From the sequence record MN709127.1: a stretch of DNA of 64,000 nt; one strand, 5' to 3'. This stretch comes from Escherichia phage Ec_Makalu_002. This document shows positions 17,560-64,000 of the stretch, piece after piece. The position numbers and the translations under genes were made by a program. Position 1 is the stretch's first letter; every line of letters starts with the position of its first letter. A model generated the notes under the pieces. The model searched no databases. It had not been told where the DNA came from and saw only the letters and a program-made list of their open reading frames with translations.

Positions 17560-17592
17560 AAAGGCGGGGGACAATCCCCCGCCTTTTTATTT
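17560..17592. terminator. rho-independent terminator between convergent units
   Basis: Hairpin ggcgggggacaatcccccgcc followed by TTTTTATTTT. Confidence 0.7.
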
Positions 17593-18072
17593 TGCTAAAT
17601 CATTGCAATATTTTAGTGCCTTAGTTTGAAACTCTGCGCTGTTAAGTTCTTCATAACGGTCATAATCACCGTTTAATGCTGCCTTTCTTGCTTCTTGTTC
17701 TATCTGCATGTCAGACATGATAATACAACGATCCCGCGCTTTCATCTTCTCAAGTTGTATAGACTCTTCTTGTTGCTTGCGCAATTCTTCTTGATGCTTC
17801 TTTTCTTCTCGTGCTTTCTCTTCCCGCGCTTCTTTGATTGCATCTTTGAACATCTGCGTTTGTGGTGCTAAACCAACTTTAACGCGATCCACGTCTCGAC
17901 GTTCCATTTTAGAAATAAAACATGATTCGATCTGGTCATCGCTTGCATATGCTGCTTTACATTCACGAAGCAAGAAAACCGGATCTGATTTAGCATTCAT
18001 CATAGCTTCCATGTTAGTACAACCAGTAAGCATGAATGCAGCCGCAAGACCAATCAGTTTAATCATTTTCAT
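17587..18072 (-). CDS. predicted lipoprotein (161 aa)
   Basis: N-terminal signal peptide with lipobox LTGC; charged coiled-coil-like remainder. Confidence 0.6.
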   Translation of the reverse strand: MKMIKLIGLAAAFMLTGCTNMEAMMNAKSDPVFLLRECKAAYASDDQIESCFISKMERRDVDRVKVGLAPQTQMFKDAIKEAREEKAREEKKHQEELRKQQEESIQLEKMKARDRCIIMSDMQIEQEARKAALNGDYDRYEELNSAEFQTKALKYCNDLAK

Positions 18073-18893
18073 TTAGTCACCTCACCGAAAATTGTAAATT
18101 GTCTACGATTCTCATCGCCGAAAGATTCTACTACGTCGTTTACCTTGATGCAAGTCCCGCGCGGTAAAATTACTTCACATTCGCAAGGATTCCATGCAAT
18201 AGACCCAACAACAAAACCTTTATGATCTTTTACGTCAATTACCCATGATACATTACAAGAATGTTGCATCTTTCCGGTCATTGATTCATATCGATTCTCA
18301 CAATAAAGGCTAGTGCTGTTTGAAAGCCATCCTCCAAAGATGATCGGTGTCATGCTGGTCGATACAAAGTTTTTAAAGGTAAATTCCTTATCTTCAATAA
18401 TACGCTCTATTGTCTGAATGTCAAGATGTTGACCGCGATAAAGAGTACCGTTTAACTTTTCGGTTTTATCCATGACACAATCCATCAAATCGACAATCTC
18501 TGATATCTCATCGGTCATGTCTTCTTCCCCTAAGAGAGCACCATTTACCCATTCGTATTGTTCAGACACATAATCGCAGATTGCATTATATTCTGCTGGG
18601 GTTATGTTGTTATGTTTGTAATGTTTGAATACATTATCTCCAAAATCTTCGGAATGTACTTCATACATCACATTAATGATTTTCTTGACAAATCCATAAT
18701 CTTGCGTTTCTTGCTCAAGGAAACGGATAACTTTCACGTAATCATCAAAGTTAATATGATCGCTGATCATTTCAGTGATCATGTAACCATTAATCCCCTC
18801 AATGCCATATGTTTCGATGTAATTATCCATACGTTCCATCATTGATTCGCGTGATTCTTCGGAAAGGCGAAAATCCTGTAATTTCTTGAACAT
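18069..18893 (-). CDS. Alt-like ADP-ribosyltransferase (second, shorter paralog)
   Basis: R-S-E signature: LYRGQ, FVSTS, CECEVILPRG; 274 aa. Confidence 0.65.
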   Translation of the reverse strand: MFKKLQDFRLSEESRESMMERMDNYIETYGIEGINGYMITEMISDHINFDDYVKVIRFLEQETQDYGFVKKIINVMYEVHSEDFGDNVFKHYKHNNITPAEYNAICDYVSEQYEWVNGALLGEEDMTDEISEIVDLMDCVMDKTEKLNGTLYRGQHLDIQTIERIIEDKEFTFKNFVSTSMTPIIFGGWLSNSTSLYCENRYESMTGKMQHSCNVSWVIDVKDHKGFVVGSIAWNPCECEVILPRGTCIKVNDVVESFGDENRRQFTIFGEVTK

Positions 18894-26981: not shown

Positions 26982-27013
26982 TTTGATTCTCCGTTTGTTG
27001 TCTTGATGGGAGT

Positions 27014-27042
27014 ATCTTACTACTCCCTTTAATCATTGTCAA
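27014..27042 (-). promoter_or_regulatory. PeSL-like early promoter cassette
   Basis: Minus TTGACA-17-TAAGAT; stem-loop gggagtatcttactactccc. Confidence 0.5.
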
Positions 27043-36203: not shown

Positions 36204-36236
36204 CTTGATACTCCTTAGTTGTTTTGGGATGGGAGT

Positions 36237-36265
36237 ATCTTACTACTCCCGTGATATGCTGTCAA
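36237..36265 (-). promoter_or_regulatory. PeSL-like early promoter cassette
   Basis: Minus TTGACA-17-TAAGAT; stem-loop gggagtatcttactactccc. Confidence 0.5.
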
Positions 36266-36423: not shown

Positions 36424-36461
36424 TTGATTCTCCTTAAAGTGTATTTCGTTTCGATGGGGGT

Positions 36462-36490
36462 ATATTAATACCCCCGTTTCATGCTGTCAA
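36462..36490 (-). promoter_or_regulatory. PeSL-like early promoter cassette
   Basis: Minus TTGACA-17-TAATAT; stem-loop gggggtatattaataccccc. Confidence 0.5.
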
Positions 36491-36709: not shown

Positions 36710-36742
36710 TTTGATTCTCCTTTGTTTCGTTTCGATGGGAGT

Positions 36743-36771
36743 ATCTTACAACTCCCAATATTCAGTGTCAA
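36743..36771 (-). promoter_or_regulatory. PeSL-like early promoter cassette
   Basis: Minus TTGACA-17-TAAGAT; stem-loop gggagtatcttacaactccc. Confidence 0.5.
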
Positions 36772-56228: not shown

Positions 56229-58997
56229 ATGGCAGATTTAAGCAGAATCCAATTTAAACGTACTAGCACTAAAGGCCGTCGACCTGATGCTGGTACGATG
56301 AATCCGGGGGAATTGGCAATCAACCTTGCGGATCAATATCTTCTTACTAAAAATGATTCCGGCGCTATTATCAATTTAAGTTGTCCTCCGGTTTATGACC
56401 GTGATGTTACAATGGCGGGTAAGGTTAAAGGAAATAATTATATTTTAAGTAAAACCGCCAATTATCTGGAAGACCAGACAGCGAGAGATCTTAACTACTT
56501 TGGTGCTTTCCGTACCAATAGTCTAGATGGACTCATGGATCTAACCCTTAACGTTCCTCACTCTTCCGGTAAAGCGCATGGTCGAGGATTTACTTTCCGT
56601 TATGGGACTGGCGGATCTCGTGTTGAAACCTATGGTTTTGATGTTCAGGGACAAAAAGCATTTAGTTATAAAATGTATCATGAAGGGGATAAACCGACTC
56701 CCTCAGAATTGAACGTTTATAGCAAACAAGAAGTTGACCGTATGTTTGTTAAAACCGTTAAACTTGCTACAGTTCCTGTTGATATCGTTGACGGTTATTT
56801 TAAATTAGCAACTGCATTGATTCCGCAAAACGGTCGTAGTGTATTTTTCCGTATTCATGGTGGTAACGGATATAACGTTACTGCATACGATCAAGTTGAT
56901 ATTGTAGAAATTGTTATTCGCAGTGGAAATAATCGTCCTAAAGGTGTTAACGTTATTGCATACCGCCGAAATACAAACAAAGCATTTGATGTTTTGGCTG
57001 TTAATACTTCTGGTGATAACTATGATATCTACGTGAAATATCAGCGTTACACTGATAACGTTATTGTTGAATTTGGTAAAAGTGTTGATGTTGATCTGGT
57101 AGTCCATGACGTTCCAGACTTTGTTGTTGATCGTCCTGTTGGCGATAATGTTATTGGCGGTCGCGCGGTAACTCTTTTTAACACCGAAAACAAACGAGGT
57201 GTGTTGAGTTTTGACGATAACACACAAAATAGTTATGATATTGTTCACTTGAGTAATGATAAAGGTACTGGACGGAAATATATTCGTAAATTCCGTAGTA
57301 ACTATAATGAAATGATCTGGCATGAGACTGTTCAAGGTTCTACTTATCGACTCGCCACGGGTAGTACAGATGCTCAGGAAATTATAACTATTGAATCTAG
57401 TAGCTCAATTGCTGGAACTCATAAAGGTAATATTATTTCTGGTCGTATGCTGTTAAATGGCGGATCTAATGCCATTACACTACGCCGACCTGCTGGTCAA
57501 TCTAATCATATTGCGTTTCAAGATAATCGTACTGGAGATATTACCCGTCAAGGTTGGCTGGGCTACGCAAACGCCGATACTGACGTTTTTGAATGGTATA
57601 GTGATGTAGGTGGCAGTTCTATTCGTCAACATATCGACGGACAGATCGAATTTCAGACAGGTAACATGAAGCGAGTCTATACCAACGGTCAATTCATTTC
57701 TTTATATGCTGATGGCTTCCGTACTGTATATGGTAACTATGGTTCATGGTGGCGAAATGACGGCAGCAACGTTTATCTGATGAGCACAAAATCAGGCGAC
57801 ACTATGGGTCCGTGGAATACCTTTAGGCCGTTCATCTATAGCCTAGCCAATGGAAACGTTACACTAGGTGGTAGCGACGCTGGCAACCATTTAATGCGTC
57901 TCAACAATGAAAATCGTCAAGTAGAAATAAATGCAACAACACATTTAGGGTCTCGATTATATTGGGAAGGTAGCGAAGGTTCTGCATCTAGATTTTTTAT
58001 TAAGAATTGGGGTGATGGAACTTCTCGCGCTCAGGTGTGGGAACTTGCAGACGAAACAAGCTATCATCTATATTCTCAGCGTGATTCTAACGGTTCGATT
58101 CAATTCCGAGTTGCTGGTAGTTTAGAAACGGGTGGTCGTGCTCAGATAAATGGTGATTTGGTGGTTACTAATGTTTTGCGTACCAATAACCAAATTCAGA
58201 TTTATCGCGATAACAACAAAGAAATCTGGTTTAAGGATGCTGATGGTACTAACCGTGGTGTTATCTGGGGTGGCGCTGACGGTAAAATGAGACTGCGCAA
58301 TTATTCTAGCGGAGAGTATGACCATGTGTTTGAAGCTGGTATGATTCGCCTTGAGCGTGGTTATGCTAATGGACAAGGTGCTGGCTTGATTCGTGGTGAG
58401 GTTCAAGGTGGAGCGTGGTCCGACTGGAGAACTCGTGCTGCTGGTTTATTAGTTGACTGCCCTAATGCTCAAACTTCCGCATATAACGTATGGAAAGCGA
58501 CCAAATGGGGATTAGACCACATCGCGGCAATGGGCGTTCATATTCCTAGCGGTGTTGTTGGTAACTCTATTGCGCGTTTGCATGTTGGTGGCACTAACTT
58601 TGATTTTAGCGCTACTGGTGACTTTACCGCAGGTCGTAACGGTTCGTTTAACGATGTGTACATTCGTTCTGATGCTCGCCTGAAAATCAATAAGGAAGAG
58701 TATAAAGAGAATGCCACCGATAAAGTTAATCGCTTGACTGTGTACACCTACGATAAGGTTAAGTCTTTGACGGACCGCACTGTTATCGCTCATGAAGTTG
58801 GTATTATTGCTCAGGATCTTGAGAAAGAATTGCCGGAAGCAGTAACAACTTCTAAGGTCGGCGATCCTGATAAGCCAGAAGAGATCTTAACAATTTCTAA
58901 CTCTGCTGTCAACGCTCTTTTAATTAAGGCGTTTCAGGAAATGAGCGAAGAATTGAAAGCCGTTAAAGCTGAACTAGCGGAACTTAAAAAGAATTAA
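56229..58997 (+). CDS. 37: long tail fiber distal subunit gp37 with C-terminal intramolecular chaperone domain
   Basis: N-terminus IQFKRTSTKGRRPDAG..GELAINL matches T4 gp37; C-terminus SDARLKINKEEYKENATDKV... resembles the self-cleaving chaperone of endosialidase-type fibers. Confidence 0.85.
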   Translation: MADLSRIQFKRTSTKGRRPDAGTMNPGELAINLADQYLLTKNDSGAIINLSCPPVYDRDVTMAGKVKGNNYILSKTANYLEDQTARDLNYFGAFRTNSLDGLMDLTLNVPHSSGKAHGRGFTFRYGTGGSRVETYGFDVQGQKAFSYKMYHEGDKPTPSELNVYSKQEVDRMFVKTVKLATVPVDIVDGYFKLATALIPQNGRSVFFRIHGGNGYNVTAYDQVDIVEIVIRSGNNRPKGVNVIAYRRNTNKAFDVLAVNTSGDNYDIYVKYQRYTDNVIVEFGKSVDVDLVVHDVPDFVVDRPVGDNVIGGRAVTLFNTENKRGVLSFDDNTQNSYDIVHLSNDKGTGRKYIRKFRSNYNEMIWHETVQGSTYRLATGSTDAQEIITIESSSSIAGTHKGNIISGRMLLNGGSNAITLRRPAGQSNHIAFQDNRTGDITRQGWLGYANADTDVFEWYSDVGGSSIRQHIDGQIEFQTGNMKRVYTNGQFISLYADGFRTVYGNYGSWWRNDGSNVYLMSTKSGDTMGPWNTFRPFIYSLANGNVTLGGSDAGNHLMRLNNENRQVEINATTHLGSRLYWEGSEGSASRFFIKNWGDGTSRAQVWELADETSYHLYSQRDSNGSIQFRVAGSLETGGRAQINGDLVVTNVLRTNNQIQIYRDNNKEIWFKDADGTNRGVIWGGADGKMRLRNYSSGEYDHVFEAGMIRLERGYANGQGAGLIRGEVQGGAWSDWRTRAAGLLVDCPNAQTSAYNVWKATKWGLDHIAAMGVHIPSGVVGNSIARLHVGGTNFDFSATGDFTAGRNGSFNDVYIRSDARLKINKEEYKENATDKVNRLTVYTYDKVKSLTDRTVIAHEVGIIAQDLEKELPEAVTTSKVGDPDKPEEILTISNSAVNALLIKAFQEMSEELKAVKAELAELKKN

Positions 58998-59310: not shown

Positions 59311-59967
59311 ATGCAAGTTTCTGAAAAAGGGAAAGACTTTGCTATCTCAAATGTCCTGCGCGCTATTTTCACAACTAAAAGCACGGAGTTGCTCGTACTT
59401 CGTGTTTTTGCTGCCGTCGTGTTGTCCATATTAGCATTTGTCGTTTATAGTAAAAACGAGTTATTCGCGCTTTATAAAGAGACTCGTTATGAGACTTATG
59501 CTCACATTCTCCAGGTAGAGAAAGACCGCAATTTTGATAATGCAGCACAGGAGCAGTTACAGATAGTTCATGTATCGGCTGATGCCGATTTTTCTGCTGT
59601 TTTTAGTTTTCGTCCGAAAAACCTAAACTATTTTGTTGATTTGGTGGCATATGAAGGAAAGCTACCGCATACAATCGATGAAAAAAATTTAGGCGGATTC
59701 CCTATCAATAAAACGAGTGAAGAATATCGTAGGCATCTTTTAGGTAAATCATATTTTACCGATAAAGATTTCCAGTATATTCCATCAAGAGAAAAGAAAT
59801 TAGAGAATATCGATATAGGTTTCATGTATTCTTGTCCTATATTCAATCTCGATAATGTCTATTCTGGTAGTATCGCCATTTCATGGAAGAATAAACCGGA
59901 TATTGACATTGAGAATTTAGATACTCTTTGCAATCAATCTGCCAGAATCCTCGGAAGGATTAGATAA
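59311..59967 (+). CDS. t: holin
   Basis: 218 aa; strong match to T4 holin T (QLQIVHVSADADFSAVFSFRPKNLNYFVDLVAYEGKLP, NQSARILGR). Confidence 0.93.
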   Translation: MQVSEKGKDFAISNVLRAIFTTKSTELLVLRVFAAVVLSILAFVVYSKNELFALYKETRYETYAHILQVEKDRNFDNAAQEQLQIVHVSADADFSAVFSFRPKNLNYFVDLVAYEGKLPHTIDEKNLGGFPINKTSEEYRRHLLGKSYFTDKDFQYIPSREKKLENIDIGFMYSCPIFNLDNVYSGSIAISWKNKPDIDIENLDTLCNQSARILGRIR

Positions 59968-59971
59968 ATTA

Positions 59972-60006
59972 AAGGGGAAGCCTTTCGGCCTCCCCTTCTT
60001 TTTTAT
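59972..60006. terminator. rho-independent terminator between convergent units
   Basis: Hairpin ggggaagcc-tttc-ggcctcccc followed by T-run. Confidence 0.65.
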
Positions 60007-60251
60007 TGGCGCATAGAAGCCCCTGAATCGCATTTTGACGCTGTATGATGAAAACAGGTAGCGTACCAGTCATCGGCTTGTTTGTCTTCGTCAGAAAACG
60101 CGTAATTTCGTTGTATGTCGTTTTCTACTTTGACCAGTGCAATAGCTGTTTCTGGAAGATCAATTAATCTGACAAAATCACCATCTTCCCACTCTACACG
60201 AGCAATATCATAGCCCATCTCAAAGTATACAATCGCTTGTTCTAGTTTCAT
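60003..60251 (-). CDS. hypothetical protein (82 aa)
   Basis: Track ORF. Confidence 0.5.
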   Translation of the reverse strand: MKLEQAIVYFEMGYDIARVEWEDGDFVRLIDLPETAIALVKVENDIQRNYAFSDEDKQADDWYATCFHHTASKCDSGASMRQ

Positions 60252-60924: not shown

Positions 60925-61293
60925 TCACTTAACAAAGATTTTCTTTAATGCTTTCAGGATCGTTGCTTCCGGCGCTTCTTCCGGTGGAGGAAGCAATTCT
61001 ACCACTTCCTCTTCCAACTCGATATAGTCTACCAGATATTCTACATAGAATGCAAGTGCTTCCATGAAATTAGATGCTACATCCGATTCACCACAAGCGC
61101 CTACATGCATTGTATAAACATCACTGCGATCAAGTTTGTGGATGCTTCCCAGATAGTTCCGGTTATACCAGACTTCCCACACTTTCAGTTTTCCGGTTTT
61201 GGTTGCTGTCTTATAATCTGTTTCGTAGTGGTGCAGTTGACGTTGCAGATCATTGATAATAACACATTTTTCGTAATTGTTTTGAATTTCCAT
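60925..61293 (-). CDS. hypothetical protein (122 aa)
   Basis: Track ORF. Confidence 0.55.
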   Translation of the reverse strand: MEIQNNYEKCVIINDLQRQLHHYETDYKTATKTGKLKVWEVWYNRNYLGSIHKLDRSDVYTMHVGACGESDVASNFMEALAFYVEYLVDYIELEEEVVELLPPPEEAPEATILKALKKIFVK

Positions 61294-61303
61294 GATGTAA
61301 TCC

Positions 61304-61495
61304 TCACTTATCGTTAAGAAGTTCTAAAACTTTCTGTCGTACTTTGTCAATATTAGTTGACTCAAATACTGTACGGTATCCCCAACTTTGACCGTATGAT
61401 CGAGAGCAATCCCCGTATCCCCATTGTTCAACCTGATAGTATTCAAGGAATGGGTGTTGCCGAACTATGATACCATCGCGATTAAAAATTACCAT
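61304..61495 (-). CDS. hypothetical protein (63 aa)
   Basis: Track ORF. Confidence 0.45.
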   Translation of the reverse strand: MVIFNRDGIIVRQHPFLEYYQVEQWGYGDCSRSYGQSWGYRTVFESTNIDKVRQKVLELLNDK

Positions 61496-61518
61496 AATAT
61501 AATCCTCACGTCAACAAA

Positions 61519-61797
61519 CTATTTTCGGTTATACTTCTGCCACTTTCGGTAATACTGCTTGTAATGTTGTTTAATGTTTGGCGGTTCGTCACTATACATG
61601 TTATCAACCATCATGTCAATAAGACCCTCCGGTGTTTGATAGCTCCCCGCTCGAATAAGTTCCTTAATTAAAAGATCTTGTGTCGCTTTATACTCTACAA
61701 TAACAACTGTCTTTTCTGCCTTTCCAATTCCGATCCGGTCGTTAGCTCTCATAGCATCCCACCAGTCTTTTTTAAACTTCATGTTATTGAATTGCAT
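61519..61797 (-). CDS. hypothetical protein (92 aa)
   Basis: Track ORF. Confidence 0.5.
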   Translation of the reverse strand: MQFNNMKFKKDWWDAMRANDRIGIGKAEKTVVIVEYKATQDLLIKELIRAGSYQTPEGLIDMMVDNMYSDEPPNIKQHYKQYYRKWQKYNRK

Positions 61798-61808
61798 AAT
61801 TTAACCTC

Positions 61809-62567
61809 TTACTTGCAAACGTATTGATCTACATCAATTGCGCCACCGAATGTAGGATGACGTTTTTCAAATCGAATAGTTCCGTCGTTTGGTTCGAAAA
61901 CGGAGTATTCATATAGATCTTTCTTGCCAACATTCTTATAAAACCCGCCTTTAGTCATAACGGTTTCTTGTACGTTTGCTTTGTGTACATTGTATTCATC
62001 AATGTACACAAAATCAACCATCTTCCCATTTTTAATAGTTACTTTAAGATCCCCTGGCTGGTTTCCATATTTTGCATACAGTGGAGATTCTTTAATTTTG
62101 GTGGAAATTCCATCTTTCATACTCCACTCATAACGAACGGTGCATTGATAGGTAAAAGTTTCGACCTTCGGTTCTTCCACCACTTTTGCTTCCTGTTTCG
62201 GTTGTTCTTCTTCAACCTTCGCAGAAGTCTCTGAATCGCTTTCTGACGCGGTTTCTTCTTTAGGTAATACATTCATCAAGTTTTGGATTTGAGCGTTATA
62301 TACAGCCTCCAGTGGCTGAATCTGCCCGATATTGATCATTGTATCACGAACAGTTTTATTCCAGTTGCGTTGCTCTTGTTTCAGAGACGGATCAATCTTA
62401 ACAGCCTTAACATATACTTCATGAAGTTTAGAATCAAGTGCGGAGATTGACTCGTTAGCACAAATAAACTTCTCTGATTTGGTAGTAGCCTTAGTGCAAT
62501 CAAAGGACGCAGCATTAGCACCGATGGCAGTAGCAGAAAGAAAGATAGCAGCGATAATGTTTTTCAT
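61809..62567 (-). CDS. secreted protein with DUF1311 / LprI-like N-terminal domain
   Basis: Signal peptide MKNIIAAIFLSATAIGANA; FDCTKATTKSEKFICANESISALDSKLHEVY...EQRNWNKTVRD fits the LprI-like pattern. Confidence 0.5.
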   Translation of the reverse strand: MKNIIAAIFLSATAIGANAASFDCTKATTKSEKFICANESISALDSKLHEVYVKAVKIDPSLKQEQRNWNKTVRDTMINIGQIQPLEAVYNAQIQNLMNVLPKEETASESDSETSAKVEEEQPKQEAKVVEEPKVETFTYQCTVRYEWSMKDGISTKIKESPLYAKYGNQPGDLKVTIKNGKMVDFVYIDEYNVHKANVQETVMTKGGFYKNVGKKDLYEYSVFEPNDGTIRFEKRHPTFGGAIDVDQYVCK

Positions 62568-62601
62568 AATATATTCCTCAATGTCTTGTCTTGATGGGAG
62601 T

Positions 62602-62630
62602 ATCTTACTACTCCCTTAATCCGGTGTCAA
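62602..62630 (-). promoter_or_regulatory. PeSL-like early promoter cassette
   Basis: Minus TTGACA-17-TAAGAT; stem-loop gggagtatcttactactccc. Confidence 0.5.
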
Positions 62631-62824
62631 CTACTTTTTAAATTTCTTCTACAGTAAAGTCTTCAATGTTGTTGTGCTCGGAGAACGTTGCCAGACCAGC
62701 ATTCCATGCATCATCCTCAGAGAAGAATACACCGTAACGTTCATATCCTTTAGCGCCTTCAAATTTAATCATTAATTTGTGAGTATGTTTCATTTTGATT
62801 CTCCATCGTTGTCTTGATGAGTTT

Positions 62825-62853
62825 AGTATAGGGGATCACCGATCCCCTGTCAA
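62825..62853 (-). promoter_or_regulatory. PeSL-like early promoter cassette
   Basis: Minus TTGACA-17-TATACT; palindrome ggggatcaccgatcccc. Confidence 0.55.
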
Positions 62854-62862
62854 CAACTATTT

Positions 62863-63075
62863 TTAATTTTTACCCACGCGTAAATTAATGCGCATTTTCT
62901 GCATAGCCATGATCTGGTTTACTGCTTCTTCTTTACGCTCTTTCGTGATAATGTGACCAGATTCCGCAAACGCTCCCGCAACTTCTTCTACGATCTCGCG
63001 AACTTGAGAACGTCCAAAGATGCGATTTCCTTCGTAGCTCATAAACTCGGTTACTACTTGCTCAATAGATTTCAT
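62863..63075 (-). CDS. hypothetical protein (70 aa)
   Basis: Track ORF with RBS. Confidence 0.5.
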   Translation of the reverse strand: MKSIEQVVTEFMSYEGNRIFGRSQVREIVEEVAGAFAESGHIITKERKEEAVNQIMAMQKMRINLRVGKN

Positions 63076-63107
63076 GTGATTCTCCTTCTTTCGTTTCGGT
63101 GTGGGAG

Positions 63108-63138
63108 TATGTTAATACTCCCGTTTCTTTACATCAAC
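63108..63138 (-). promoter_or_regulatory. PeSL-like cassette, weaker hexamers
   Basis: Minus TTGATG; stem-loop gggagtatgttaatactccc. Confidence 0.35.
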
Positions 63139-63144
63139 CAGTTT

Positions 63145-63387
63145 TTAGAAATTTTTCGCTTCTTCTTCGGTCATCATAACCGCGCATTCGTGCATAACTT
63201 TGAAAACCGGATCAATCATGTCGAATGCTTCGCGAGACAGTTTACGAGAAGCGATTTTGATTGCTTCAACGTCTTCTACTACAGGAACAAAAACAGTTTT
63301 CAGTTCATCGAGCACAGCAGCTTCTTTTTCATTCAGGAAGATTCCAGCGTCGTACAGTGCAACTTCGATAACATTAACTTTAACCAT
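63145..63387 (-). CDS. hypothetical protein (about 80 aa)
   Basis: Internal start MVKVNVIE... preferred by position behind the cassette. Confidence 0.45.
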   Translation of the reverse strand: MVKVNVIEVALYDAGIFLNEKEAAVLDELKTVFVPVVEDVEAIKIASRKLSREAFDMIDPVFKVMHECAVMMTEEEAKNF

Positions 63388-63450
63388 TTTTATTTCCTCC
63401 AGTTCGTTTCGGTATGTGAGTATAATACTACCGATGACCTTTGGCGTCAA

Positions 63451-63651
63451 CTAGTTTTTGTTATTTTCGTGAAAATTTTTCGTCGCCTCATGTGCTTTTC
63501 GCTGGGCTTCTTGTTGTGCTTGCTGGCGTGCTGCCTCTTGTGAAGCCATAACGGAAGCATTTGCAGCAGTTACAGCCGCTACCATCGCTGCGGTATTAGC
63601 ATTTACAGTACATGCACTAGCCAGCAAAGCAATTGCAATCATTTTCTTCAT
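63451..63651 (-). CDS. small secreted protein (66 aa)
   Basis: Signal peptide MKKMIAIALLASACTVNA; Ala/Gln-rich remainder. Confidence 0.5.
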   Translation of the reverse strand: MKKMIAIALLASACTVNANTAAMVAAVTAANASVMASQEAARQQAQQEAQRKAHEATKNFHENNKN

Positions 63652-63833
63652 AGTTTCCCCTTTAGGTTATCTTCGACCTTCATCCATTCCGCGTATTCTT
63701 GCGCAGCTACTTTCGGATTTAGTCCGTCTTCGTACATTGCATCGAGTAATTCTTCGTCGGTGGGCTTATACCCTAGATAAGCCTCCACCTGATTTTTCCA
63801 AATTTTATACCAGTTCATATTATCACCAATCAA
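63648..63833 (-). CDS. hypothetical protein (61 aa)
   Basis: Track ORF. Confidence 0.45.
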   Translation of the reverse strand: MIGDNMNWYKIWKNQVEAYLGYKPTDEELLDAMYEDGLNPKVAAQEYAEWMKVEDNLKGKL

Positions 63834-64000
63834 GAGCGCGTGTCTCTGCGTCTTCCCATGCTTGATCCATTACAGCCTTAAAAACATACTCTAAGGTATC
63901 ATCTTTAGAGAATCCGAAGACTTTAGACGGAATATCTTCGATTGCCACTCCCGAAACTTCTGCATTACGCGCTTGGCAATAATGCAACTCTAAGTTATCG

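What the first reader, a model, noticed from the sequence alone, without database searches (positions are those of the whole stretch)
61809..62567. Secreted LprI/DUF1311-like protein and other exported proteins in the early region
61809..62567 has a signal peptide and an N-terminal domain matching the LprI / DUF1311 pattern (Cys pair, EQRNW, RD). Some members of that family are described as lysozyme inhibitors. Together with the lipoprotein at 17587..18072 and the small secreted protein at 63451..63651, it may act in the periplasm on lysis timing or superinfection exclusion.
Basis: partly seen in the sequence, partly recalled or inferred. Interest (0 to 1): 0.4.

Follow-up and report, generated by a model that had tools for sequence, protein, structure and literature searches.

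The report
Secreted DUF1311 phage protein, swappable cassette
This early gene of an RB49-type coliphage encodes an exported protein made of a nearly invariant DUF1311 ("LprI") helical domain joined to a small beta-barrel that is swapped as a cassette between lytic phages and E. coli prophages; that pattern suggests a role in phage-phage or bacterial conflict, not a proven lysozyme inhibitor.

Summary
ORF 61809..62567 (-) encodes 252 aa with a Sec-type signal peptide (ANA|AS) and a Pfam LprI/DUF1311 match above the curated cut-off (26.3 vs 22 bits). The match covers only residues 24-76. The window is a Krischvirus (RB49-like); the gene is RB49 ORF262.

Residues 1-134 (signal peptide, four-helix DUF1311 domain, acidic E/K/P linker) are at least 87% identical in every close homolog (dN/dS 0.03-0.27). 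Residues 135-252 are a disulfide-bounded beta-barrel with no sequence relatives elsewhere, and they occur in at least six very divergent types.

DNA homology between Krischviruses breaks at codon ~135 and resumes at the stop codon. The same gene sits at the end of a ~35-kb prophage inserted in hicB in 26 of 5426 E. coli genomes, with a remnant of the Krischvirus downstream gene. It was therefore captured from a lytic phage.

A PeSL early promoter lies directly upstream. No cassette matches MliC, the domain credited with lysozyme inhibition in M. tuberculosis LprI.

I favour a periplasmic binder or inhibitor acting in superinfection exclusion or immunity. A role in lysis timing, and a link to the two other exported proteins, are unsupported.

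The parts
62596..62630 (-). PeSL (promoter-early stem-loop): TTGACA, 17-nt spacer, TAAGAT, with the stem GGGAGTA/TACTCCC overlapping the -10 hexamer
   Evidence: The promoter scan scored 10 of 12. The exact PeSL motif occurs 7 times in the window against 0 expected. It is conserved upstream of the JSE and Phi1 alleles. PeSLs were described as strong sigma-70-like early promoters combined with terminators in RB49 and phi1 (PMC2839356).
62575..62579 (-). Ribosome-binding site GAGGA, 7 nt before the ATG
   Evidence: Read from the sequence. An RBS is annotated at the equivalent place in Ec_Makalu_003.
61809..62567 (-). Complete coding sequence, 252 aa plus stop; ortholog of RB49p262 / phi1 ORF262
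   Evidence: PHROG 14799 matches the full length, E 1.7e-153, function unknown.
62511..62567 (-). Signal peptide, residues 1-19, with predicted signal peptidase I cleavage ANA|AS
   Evidence: Hydrophobicity and the -3/-1 rule; no lipobox. The mature N-terminus ASFDC is invariant in all phage homologs.
62268..62510 (-). DUF1311/LprI-like four-helix domain, residues 20-100, with the Cys24-Cys36 pair and the Q-R-x-W / R-D motif
   Evidence: Pfam PF07007, 26.3 bits against cut-off 22. AlphaFold2 predicts helices 30-37, 39-58, 62-80 and 83-98 with pLDDT around 80. dN/dS is 0.03-0.27.
62166..62267 (-). Acidic E/K/S/P-rich disordered linker, residues 101-134; its 3' end is the upstream recombination boundary
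   Evidence: pLDDT is below 50 for residues 104-131. The linker varies in length between alleles. blastn homology to JSE, Phi1 and UPWr_E1 ends at 62160-62166. Homology to the E. coli prophage copies ends at 62160 or 62189.
61809..62165 (-). Type A C-terminal cassette, residues 135-252 plus stop: all-beta domain bounded by Cys142 and Cys251
   Evidence: AlphaFold2 predicts 9 strands with pLDDT 80-91. The nearest folds are small up-and-down barrels (NHBA C-domain, TbpB, fHbp, FABP/lipocalin), and the matches are weak. A profile search of 1.84 billion representative proteins found only this family plus two spurious PKD-repeat proteins. Homology to other Krischviruses resumes at 61810-61827, at the stop codon. 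Type A is present in 44 phage records at 94-100% nucleotide identity.

Best explanation
Shown. The gene has a PeSL early-promoter motif directly upstream. Its product has a cleavable Sec signal peptide. It has two domains: a constant DUF1311 four-helix domain with one cysteine pair, then a flexible acidic linker of about 35 residues, then a small beta-barrel whose first and last strands each carry a cysteine. The barrel is a recombination cassette. At least six very divergent versions sit on an almost identical N-terminal half in Krischviruses and in an E. coli prophage. The prophage obtained the gene from a Krischvirus-like phage.

Inferred. Early in infection, or constitutively in the lysogen, the protein enters the periplasm and DsbA forms its two disulfides. 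There it binds and neutralises a protein that arrives from outside. The most likely target class is a peptidoglycan hydrolase, such as the tail lysozyme of a superinfecting phage or a muramidase toxin. This is because DUF1311 proteins are the genetically paired immunity partners of cell-wall-targeting and lysozyme- or pesticin-type T6SS effectors. In this reading the variable barrel sets or extends partner specificity and diversifies under an arms race. The function would be analogous to T4 Spackle, which Krischviruses lack, or to an orphan immunity protein.
For: - Export and architecture.
- Early expression: a PeSL promoter lies 29 nt upstream of the ATG and is conserved in JSE and Phi1 (PMC2839356).
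- Cassette boundaries are sharp, at codon ~135 and at the stop codon.
- Cassette types: A (window, RB49), B', C (Phi1), D and E (JSE) occur in Krischviruses; B, D and E' occur in prophages.
- Between types, cassettes are 26-51% identical or not alignable (hhalign probability 6%). The N-terminal halves of the close alleles are 87-100% identical.
- The N-terminal half is under purifying selection, dN/dS 0.03-0.27.
- The type A and type E barrels give the same best PDB match, the NHBA C-domain.
- The prophage copy sits at the prophage end beside a truncated hicB and is transcribed opposite to its neighbours. This is a typical place for lysogen-protecting genes. It also retains about 20 codons of the Krischvirus downstream gene.
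- DUF1311 proteins serve as immunity partners of periplasm-acting effectors. Etsi4 rescues Etse4 toxicity (PMC12981562). LprI-domain genes lie next to lysozyme-like effectors (PMC9796082). A pesticin-domain effector Pse15 is paired with the LprI-domain protein Psi15 (bioRxiv 10.64898/2026.08.01.741415).
- The overall layout (N-terminal DUF1311 domain followed by a C-terminal beta-barrel) parallels that of M. tuberculosis LprI, which has DUF1311 plus MliC (PMC7933661). UniProt names the RB49 protein an 'LprI-like N-terminal domain-containing protein'. The N-to-C domain order in the mycobacterial protein is inferred from that name and from my own knowledge; I could not check it, because the primary paper is not held.
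- Krischviruses have no T4 Sp or Imm homolog.
- Their endolysin looks like an M15/VanY-type peptidase (my reading of the sequence, plus a weak D-Ala-D-Ala carboxypeptidase hit reported in PMC1524935). The only lysozyme I identified is the T4-lysozyme-like domain of gp5. On that reading, a periplasmic lysozyme inhibitor would not block the phage's own lysis.
Against: - There is no functional data for any phage member.
- The DUF1311 domain alone gave no lysozyme resistance in Salmonella ScwA (PMC7933661).
- No cassette matches MliC, PliC or any other Pfam family, and MliC/PliC are not among the top 50 structural matches.
- Cassette type does not track the Krischvirus gp5 lysozyme domain, which is 94-100% identical across all types. 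A polymorphic target would therefore have to lie outside this genus.
- Klebsiella T4-like phages carry both Spackle and a DUF1311 homolog about 2 kb apart, so the two are not simple substitutes.
- No effector gene is adjacent, unlike true T6SS immunity genes.
Confidence: 0.38

Rival explanations
1. Modulator of the host envelope. As proposed for Salmonella ScwA, the DUF1311 domain would bind a host peptidoglycan-remodelling enzyme, for example a lytic transglycosylase such as MltD. This would change wall turnover to favour phage development or lysogen fitness. The variable barrel would adapt the protein to strain-specific periplasmic or outer-membrane partners.
For: ScwA is a soluble periplasmic DUF1311 protein with disulfides. 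It raises MltD levels, and its overproduction causes lysis (PMC7933661). The phage protein is likewise soluble and not a lipoprotein. The barrel resembles ligand- or protein-binding barrels.
Against: ScwA has a different architecture: its DUF1311 domain is C-terminal and it has no barrel. E. coli periplasmic housekeeping enzymes are not polymorphic enough to explain six or more cassette types. The hosts recorded for type A phages span K-12, B, O157, LF82 and Shigella.
Confidence: 0.17
2. Receptor or entry-route masking, as with T5 Llp or phi80 Cor. The barrel would bind the periplasmic face of an outer-membrane receptor or an inner-membrane entry factor, blocking reinfection and protecting progeny from adsorbing to cell debris.
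For: The protein is an early, exported, polymorphic gene only 1.8 kb from the tail-fibre/holin block. Prophage-end genes often have this function.
Against: It is not a lipoprotein. Cassette type does not covary with the gp37 tip. The window's gp37 tip is shared by only five records, one of which (GEC-3S, deposited twice) carries a non-A cassette, while 44 type A records have other tips. Even Makalu_003, 99.6% identical around this gene, differs there.
Confidence: 0.1
3. One reading: a periplasmic lysozyme inhibitor that tunes lysis timing together with the other exported proteins of the window.
For: The gene is near the holin gene t. The family name is 'lysozyme inhibitor'.
Against: The RB49 endolysin looks like an M15/VanY-type peptidase, not a lysozyme (my reading of the sequence). 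RB49 already has rI and t for lysis inhibition. The gene is early and on the opposite strand to t. It works as a stand-alone gene in a prophage of an unrelated type. The other two exported proteins are unlinked, and one lies in a dispensable indel.
Confidence: 0.05
4. Polymorphic secreted toxin: a constant N-terminal trafficking region with a variable C-terminal toxic domain, neutralised by a neighbouring immunity gene.
For: The constant-N, variable-C pattern with sharp recombination boundaries is the hallmark of polymorphic toxins.
Against: The downstream gene does not covary with cassette type: it is nearly identical in the window (type A) and Phi1 (type C). In prophages that gene is only a 25-codon remnant. 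The cassette is a roughly 115-aa barrel with no catalytic motif or toxin family match, and no secretion-system marker is present.
Confidence: 0.03

Closest known systems
Mycobacterium tuberculosis LprI (Rv1541c): DUF1311 (PF07007) plus MliC (PF09864)
   Same: Exported protein with an N-terminal DUF1311 helical domain followed by a C-terminal beta-barrel.
   Different: LprI is a lipoprotein, and its barrel is a recognisable MliC domain, reported as sufficient for lysozyme inhibition. The phage protein is soluble. Its barrel matches no family and comes in many unrelated-looking versions.
DUF1311/LprI-domain T6SS immunity proteins (EHEC Etsi4; Pantoea Psi15 and orphan immunity genes)
   Same: Signal peptide plus DUF1311 domain. 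They act in the periplasm against incoming cell-wall-targeting proteins, and they also occur as orphan genes kept for defence.
   Different: These are single-domain proteins of about 100-180 aa encoded beside their effector. The phage protein has an extra linker and a polymorphic barrel, no adjacent effector, and lives in phage genomes.
T4 Spackle (gp61.3)
   Same: An early, Sec-exported, soluble periplasmic phage protein. Spackle inhibits the gp5 tail lysozyme and contributes to superinfection exclusion (PMC7677548). Krischviruses lack it.
   Different: There is no sequence similarity. Spackle is a single 97-aa helical domain that is highly conserved, not polymorphic. Klebsiella T4-like phages carry both proteins.
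Salmonella ScwA (SL1344_0490)
   Same: A soluble periplasmic DUF1311 protein stabilised by disulfides and linked to peptidoglycan enzymes.
   Different: In ScwA the DUF1311 domain is at the C-terminus of a 275-aa all-helical protein. It is chromosomal, shows no cassette variation, and gave no lysozyme resistance.
PeSL-mediated modular shuffling in RB49/phi1 hyperplastic regions (Arbiol et al. 2010)
   Same: The gene lies in the same hyperplastic early region and has a PeSL directly upstream.
   Different: PeSL shuffling moves whole ORFs between PeSLs. Here the exchanged unit is half a gene, and its boundaries lie in the linker-coding region and at the start of the next ORF.

Membership tests
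LprI / DUF1311 (Pfam PF07007) | Profile HMM score at or above the curated gathering cut-off | tested here: met
   26.3 bits against a cut-off of 22, E 1e-5. Four homologs from Klebsiella, Aeromonas and Salmonella phages and the type E allele P0016 also pass.
LprI / DUF1311 (Pfam PF07007) | Match over the whole domain model | tested here: not met
   Only profile positions 1-71 of 106 align (residues 24-76), and the same holds in every phage homolog. The last helix exists in the model (83-98) but has diverged.
LprI / DUF1311 (Pfam PF07007) | Four conserved cysteines within the family domain (as described by Pfam and quoted in PMC7933661) | tested here: not met
   The domain has two cysteines, C24 and C36. 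The other two, C142 and C251, belong to the cassette.
LprI / DUF1311 (Pfam PF07007) | Exported, all-helical small domain | tested here: met
   A signal peptide by heuristic and four predicted helices with pLDDT around 80.
MliC/PliC lysozyme inhibitors (Pfam PF09864) | Sequence match to the MliC profile | tested here: not met
   No hit at E up to 10 for the whole protein or for any of 12 cassettes.
MliC/PliC lysozyme inhibitors (Pfam PF09864) | Eight-stranded antiparallel beta-barrel close to solved MliC/PliC structures | tested here: inconclusive
   The model is a small up-and-down barrel, but the top 50 PDB matches are NHBA, TbpB, fHbp, FABP, lipocalin and avidin, with target-normalised TM-scores of 0.39 or less for type A and 0.52 or less for type E. 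MliC and PliC are not listed. A direct superposition was not possible.
MliC/PliC lysozyme inhibitors (Pfam PF09864) | Inhibition of lysozyme activity | not testable with these tools
   This needs an enzyme assay with purified protein.
T4 Spackle family | Sequence homology to gp61.3 | tested here: not met
   tblastn with T4 Sp finds nothing in the window, in RB49 positions 1-100 kb, or in the rIIB-proximal loci. Sp homologs occur in 927 other phage records.
T4 Spackle family | Binds and inhibits the gp5 tail lysozyme domain | not testable with these tools
   This needs binding and activity assays. Cassette type does not covary with the Krischvirus gp5 lysozyme domain.
T6SS effector-immunity pair (DUF1311 immunity) | Encoded immediately next to a cognate effector gene | tested here: not met
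   The neighbours are small early ORFs of unknown function in the phage, and hicB or hypothetical genes in the prophage.
Polymorphic toxin system | The variable C-terminal domain covaries with an adjacent immunity gene | tested here: not met
   The downstream ORF is nearly identical between type A and type C phages and is truncated in prophages.
PeSL-flanked mobile ORF module | PeSL elements on both sides of the exchanged unit | tested here: not met
   One PeSL lies upstream at 62596-62630 and none lies downstream. The exchange boundaries are inside the gene and at its stop codon.

The most novel reading that the evidence does not exclude
The locus is a previously undescribed modular superinfection-exclusion or immunity system. 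A constant DUF1311 'handle' carries interchangeable barrel 'heads', each specific for a different incoming phage or toxin component. The cassette pool is shared and traded by homologous recombination between virulent T4-type phages and a temperate prophage, and the prophage stole the gene to defend its lysogen against such phages.
Probability: 0.2. Interest if true: 0.75.

Novelty: new variant of a known kind. Interest (0 to 1): 0.45.

Why it matters
Apart from Imm and Spackle, little is established about how T4-type phages defend an infected cell at the envelope, and Krischviruses have neither protein. This gene is an exported protein with a frozen half and a hypervariable, cleanly swappable half. 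It is shared by virulent phages and a prophage, so it is a ready-made natural experiment. Allele swaps should show directly what the barrel recognises. They should also show whether the widespread DUF1311 domain is itself a muramidase-binding module, a question that the Pfam name 'lysozyme inhibitor LprI' currently glosses over. The locus also documents gene flow from a lytic phage into a temperate one.

Tried and rejected
- MliC identity of the C-terminal domain: rejected by Pfam scans of the whole protein and of 12 cassettes at E up to 10. Two fold searches gave no support.
- Distant relatives of the cassette: a profile search of 1.84 billion representatives returned only the family itself and two PKD-repeat proteins, which I judged spurious.
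- A word-indexed search with the type E profile returned nothing, not even its source proteins. I treat it as uninformative.
- Sequence searches of the PDB with the protein and with an N-terminal profile found nothing meaningful.
- Spackle or Imm homology: none.
- Covariation of cassette type with the gp37 tail-fibre tip: none.
- Covariation with the gp5 lysozyme domain: none.
- Silent cassette copies (a shufflon or pilin-like archive) elsewhere in the window, in RB49 positions 1-100 kb, or in the prophage flanks: none. Each genome has one copy.
- A diversity-generating retroelement: rejected, because cassettes differ throughout and by indels, and no reverse transcriptase lies nearby.
- Toxin-immunity pair with the downstream ORF: rejected.
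- PADLOC defence models: only noise-level hits.
- NCBIfam: nothing above threshold.
- Sethi et al. 2016, the primary LprI paper, could not be read.

Full report
**What the window is.** Positions 61000-64000 are 99.6% identical to Escherichia phage Ec_Makalu_003 and 93-97% identical to RB49, JSE-like and other Krischvirus genomes. These are T4-type coliphages of the family Straboviridae. The finding lies in the minus-strand cluster of small early ORFs between the holin gene t (window 59311..59967, +) and the topoisomerase II medium-subunit gene 52. The ORF is the ortholog of RB49p262 / phi1 ORF262, annotated 'hypothetical protein' in every record. A weak DUF1311 hit in RB49 (ORF260c in the older numbering, E 0.2) was already listed in 2006 (PMC1524935).

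**The observation.**
- The ORF 61809..62567 (-) is real: ATG start, 252 aa.
- Its N-terminus, MKNIIAAIFLSATAIGANA|ASFDC, has the features of a signal peptidase I substrate. It has no lipobox and no later hydrophobic segment (heuristic, SignalP not available).
- Pfam LprI (PF07007) scores 26.3 bits against a curated cut-off of 22, over residues 24-76.
C24, C36, R67, W69 and R74 are invariant in homologs from Klebsiella, Aeromonas and Salmonella phages, and four of those homologs (Marfa, SAKp28, AS-sw, SSU5) pass the Pfam cut-off on their own.

**Anatomy.**
- AlphaFold2, with 22 aligned homologs, predicts four helices (30-37, 39-58, 62-80, 83-98; pLDDT about 80).
- It predicts a disordered acidic E/K/S/P-rich linker (104-131, pLDDT below 50).
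- It predicts an all-beta domain of nine strands (135-251, pLDDT 80-91).
- The beta domain begins and ends with a cysteine (C142, C251). These two positions are conserved in all barrel-type versions, types A to E.
- The Klebsiella, Aeromonas and Salmonella phage homologs have unrelated C-terminal halves, but each also carries exactly two cysteines there.

**The constant/variable split.**
- Alignment of the 21 database homologs shows an almost invariant N-terminal half, while the C-terminal domain changes completely.
- At least six cassette types exist:
  - A: window, RB49.
  - B and B'.
  - C: Phi1.
  - D.
  - E and E': JSE.
  - A helical version in a more distant relative, P0021.
- Types A to D are 26-51% identical to one another. 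Type E is not detectably homologous to them (hhalign probability 6%).
- A lower-confidence model of type E (pLDDT 50-80) is also an eight-stranded all-beta domain. Like type A, it has the NHBA C-domain barrel as its best PDB match, followed by FABP, lipocalin and avidin barrels.
- A profile of types A to D searched against 1.84 billion representative proteins found only this family plus two PKD-repeat proteins, which I regard as spurious.
- No cassette hits any Pfam family.

**The cassette is a recombination unit.**
- blastn of the window against JSE, Phi1 and UPWr_E1 shows 92-96% identity on both sides. There is a clean loss of homology from window 62160-62166 (codon ~135, the end of the linker) to 61810-61827 (the stop codon).
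- Among phage records, 58 carry the N-terminal half at 89% or higher amino-acid identity. Of these, 44 carry the type A cassette at 94-100% nucleotide identity, and the rest carry other types.
- A 174.8-kb metagenomic Krischvirus-like contig carries type D at the same locus.
- The N-terminal 102 codons are under purifying selection: dN/dS 0.03-0.27, with dS 0.08-0.30.
- No silent cassette copies exist elsewhere in the genomes examined.

**Prophage copies and direction of transfer.**
- Twenty-six of 5426 complete E. coli genomes carry the N-terminal half at 95-97% nucleotide identity, once each, on the chromosome.
- In the two genomes examined, the gene is the outermost gene of a prophage inserted in hicB, which is left truncated. 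It is transcribed opposite to its neighbours.
- IMG/VR holds nine prophage contigs of 24-36 kb (most about 35 kb) with the gene at the very end of the contig. They carry cassette types D (six), E' (two) and B (one).
- Immediately after the stop codon, the prophage copies retain about 20 codons of the Krischvirus downstream gene (ORF261, PHROG 15915) before the sequence diverges. The upstream promoter region is unrelated.
- The gene therefore moved from a Krischvirus-like lytic phage into the prophage. The two conserved flanks can support later cassette exchange when such a phage infects a lysogen.

**Expression.** The sequence TTGACA-N17-TAAGAT, with the stem GGGAGTA/TACTCCC, lies at 62630..62596 (-), 29 nt upstream of the ATG. 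It is conserved in JSE and Phi1. It is one of seven copies of this motif in the window, against none expected. These are the PeSLs of Arbiol et al. 2010, described as strong sigma-70-like early promoters joined to terminator stem-loops in RB49 and phi1 (PMC2839356). Early transcription is thus well supported, though I did not see expression data for this gene itself.

**What the name does and does not imply.**
- The ScwA authors point out that M. tuberculosis LprI has a second domain, MliC, which has been shown experimentally to be sufficient for lysozyme resistance. They add that no experiment shows the PF07007 domain to be a lysozyme inhibitor. Their periplasmic DUF1311 protein ScwA gave no lysozyme resistance but raised MltD levels (PMC7933661).
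- On the other side, DUF1311 proteins are immunity partners of periplasm-acting, cell-wall-targeting T6SS effectors:
  - Etsi4 rescues Etse4 toxicity (PMC12981562).
  - LprI-domain genes sit next to lysozyme-like effectors in Pantoea (PMC9796082).
  - A pesticin-domain effector, Pse15, is paired with the LprI-domain protein Psi15 (bioRxiv 10.64898/2026.08.01.741415).
- From my own knowledge, the pesticin activity domain has the T4-lysozyme fold, as does the gp5 lysozyme domain.

**Tests of specific hypotheses.**
- Spackle or Imm replacement: T4 Sp and Imm have no tblastn match in RB49 positions 1-100 kb, the window, or the rIIB-proximal loci. However, Klebsiella T4-like phages have both Sp and a DUF1311 homolog about 2 kb apart. 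The two are therefore not simple alternatives.
- Own-lysis interference: by my reading of the sequence, the RB49 endolysin is an M15/VanY-type peptidase. The T4-lysozyme-like domain of gp5 is the only lysozyme I identified. A periplasmic lysozyme inhibitor would then be harmless to the phage's own lysis.
- Covariation with gp5: the gp5 lysozyme domain is 94-100% identical in all Krischviruses whatever their cassette.
- Covariation with the receptor-binding tip of gp37: none.
- Toxin-immunity pairing with the downstream ORF: rejected.

**Interpretation.**
- The shown facts are these: Sec export (predicted), a PeSL early promoter, two disulfide-stabilised domains, a strongly constrained DUF1311 half, a hypervariable cassette, exchange across lytic and temperate phages, and a prophage-end location.
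- Together they fit a protein that acts in the periplasm on something that itself varies and comes from outside.
- I rank a superinfection-exclusion or immunity-type binder first (confidence about 0.38). A peptidoglycan hydrolase is the most likely target class, because of the DUF1311 literature.
- A ScwA-like modulator of host wall enzymes comes next (about 0.17), then receptor masking (about 0.10).
- The remaining probability is for functions not considered here.

**The other two proteins in the finding.**
- The 161-aa ORF 17587..18072 (-) has a lipobox (LTGC) and belongs to PHROG 16112, of unknown function. It lies between a baseplate gene and an Alt-like ADP-ribosyltransferase gene, 44 kb away.
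- The 66-aa ORF 63451..63651 (-) has a plausible signal peptide. It lies in a ~500-bp segment (about 63159-63660) that JSE, Phi1 and UPWr_E1 lack.
- Nothing connects either protein to ORF262.

**Novelty.** A DUF1311 match in RB49 has been on record since 2006, and UniProt already names the protein 'LprI-like N-terminal domain-containing'. The gene's divergence between RB49 and phi1 falls within the '23 divergent genes' of Arbiol et al., but it is not discussed there. I found no description of four things: the half-gene cassette, its orphan barrel fold, the shared cassette pool with a prophage, or the lytic-to-temperate capture. I therefore rate it a new variant of a known kind, of moderate interest.

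Noticed in passing
window 60003..60251 (-): This 82-aa ORF is the last gene of the same early cluster. It matches Pfam Tad2-like (Thoeris anti-defence 2) at 27.5 bits against a cut-off of 25, E 4.7e-6. The same weak hit is recorded for its ortholog in a metagenomic Krischvirus contig. It is a candidate anti-Thoeris sponge.
   Followed up: partly
window 27008-27042, 36231-36265, 36456-36490, 36737-36771, 62596-62630, 63103-63137 (all -): There are seven matches to the PeSL motif TTGACA-N9-GGGAGTA-N6-TACTCCC, with none expected by chance. Six are on the minus strand. The seventh, 62581-62615 (+), is the palindromic stem read on the other strand. They mark the hyperplastic early regions described for RB49 and phi1.
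   Followed up: partly
window ~63159-63660: This ~500-bp segment holds the 66-aa secreted ORF (63451..63651) and a 101-aa ORF (63145..63450). It is present in the window and in Makalu_003 but absent from JSE, Phi1 and UPWr_E1. One edge abuts the PeSL at 63103-63137, as expected for PeSL-mediated insertion or deletion.
   Followed up: partly
L002 11085-12408 and L003 11038-12379 (E. coli chromosomes); L020-L028: A prophage of about 35 kb with a lambda-type terminase is integrated into the antitoxin gene hicB, leaving it truncated beside an intact hicA toxin gene. The captured Krischvirus gene is its outermost gene, followed by a 25-codon remnant of Krischvirus ORF261.
   Followed up: partly
L013 4719-5108 (RB49p102) and L013 15150-16952 (RB49 gene 5): By my reading of the sequence, the RB49 endolysin is a 129-aa M15/VanY-type peptidase rather than a T4 e-type lysozyme. 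The T4-lysozyme-like domain of the gp5 tail spike is the only lysozyme I identified, and it is 94-100% identical across the genus.
   Followed up: partly
window 18069..18893 (-): This 274-aa ORF next to the lipoprotein gene matches Alt-like RNA polymerase ADP-ribosyltransferase PHROGs (E 1.3e-195 and 1.3e-44). It is much shorter than T4 Alt.
   Followed up: no
window 56229..58997 (+), especially 57780-58380: The distal tip region of the long tail fibre gene 37 is shared with only five phage records at 85-93% identity. It differs even from Makalu_003, which is 99.6% identical in the neighbouring early region. This indicates a recent tail-fibre exchange.
   Followed up: partly
L012 1642-1923 and 4001-4765 (Klebsiella phage SAKp28); L009 (Marfa): In Klebsiella T4-like phages the DUF1311 homolog (252-254 aa, with a different, apparently helical C-terminal half) lies between the primase gene 61 and the dCTPase gene 56, about 2 kb from a Spackle homolog.
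   Followed up: no
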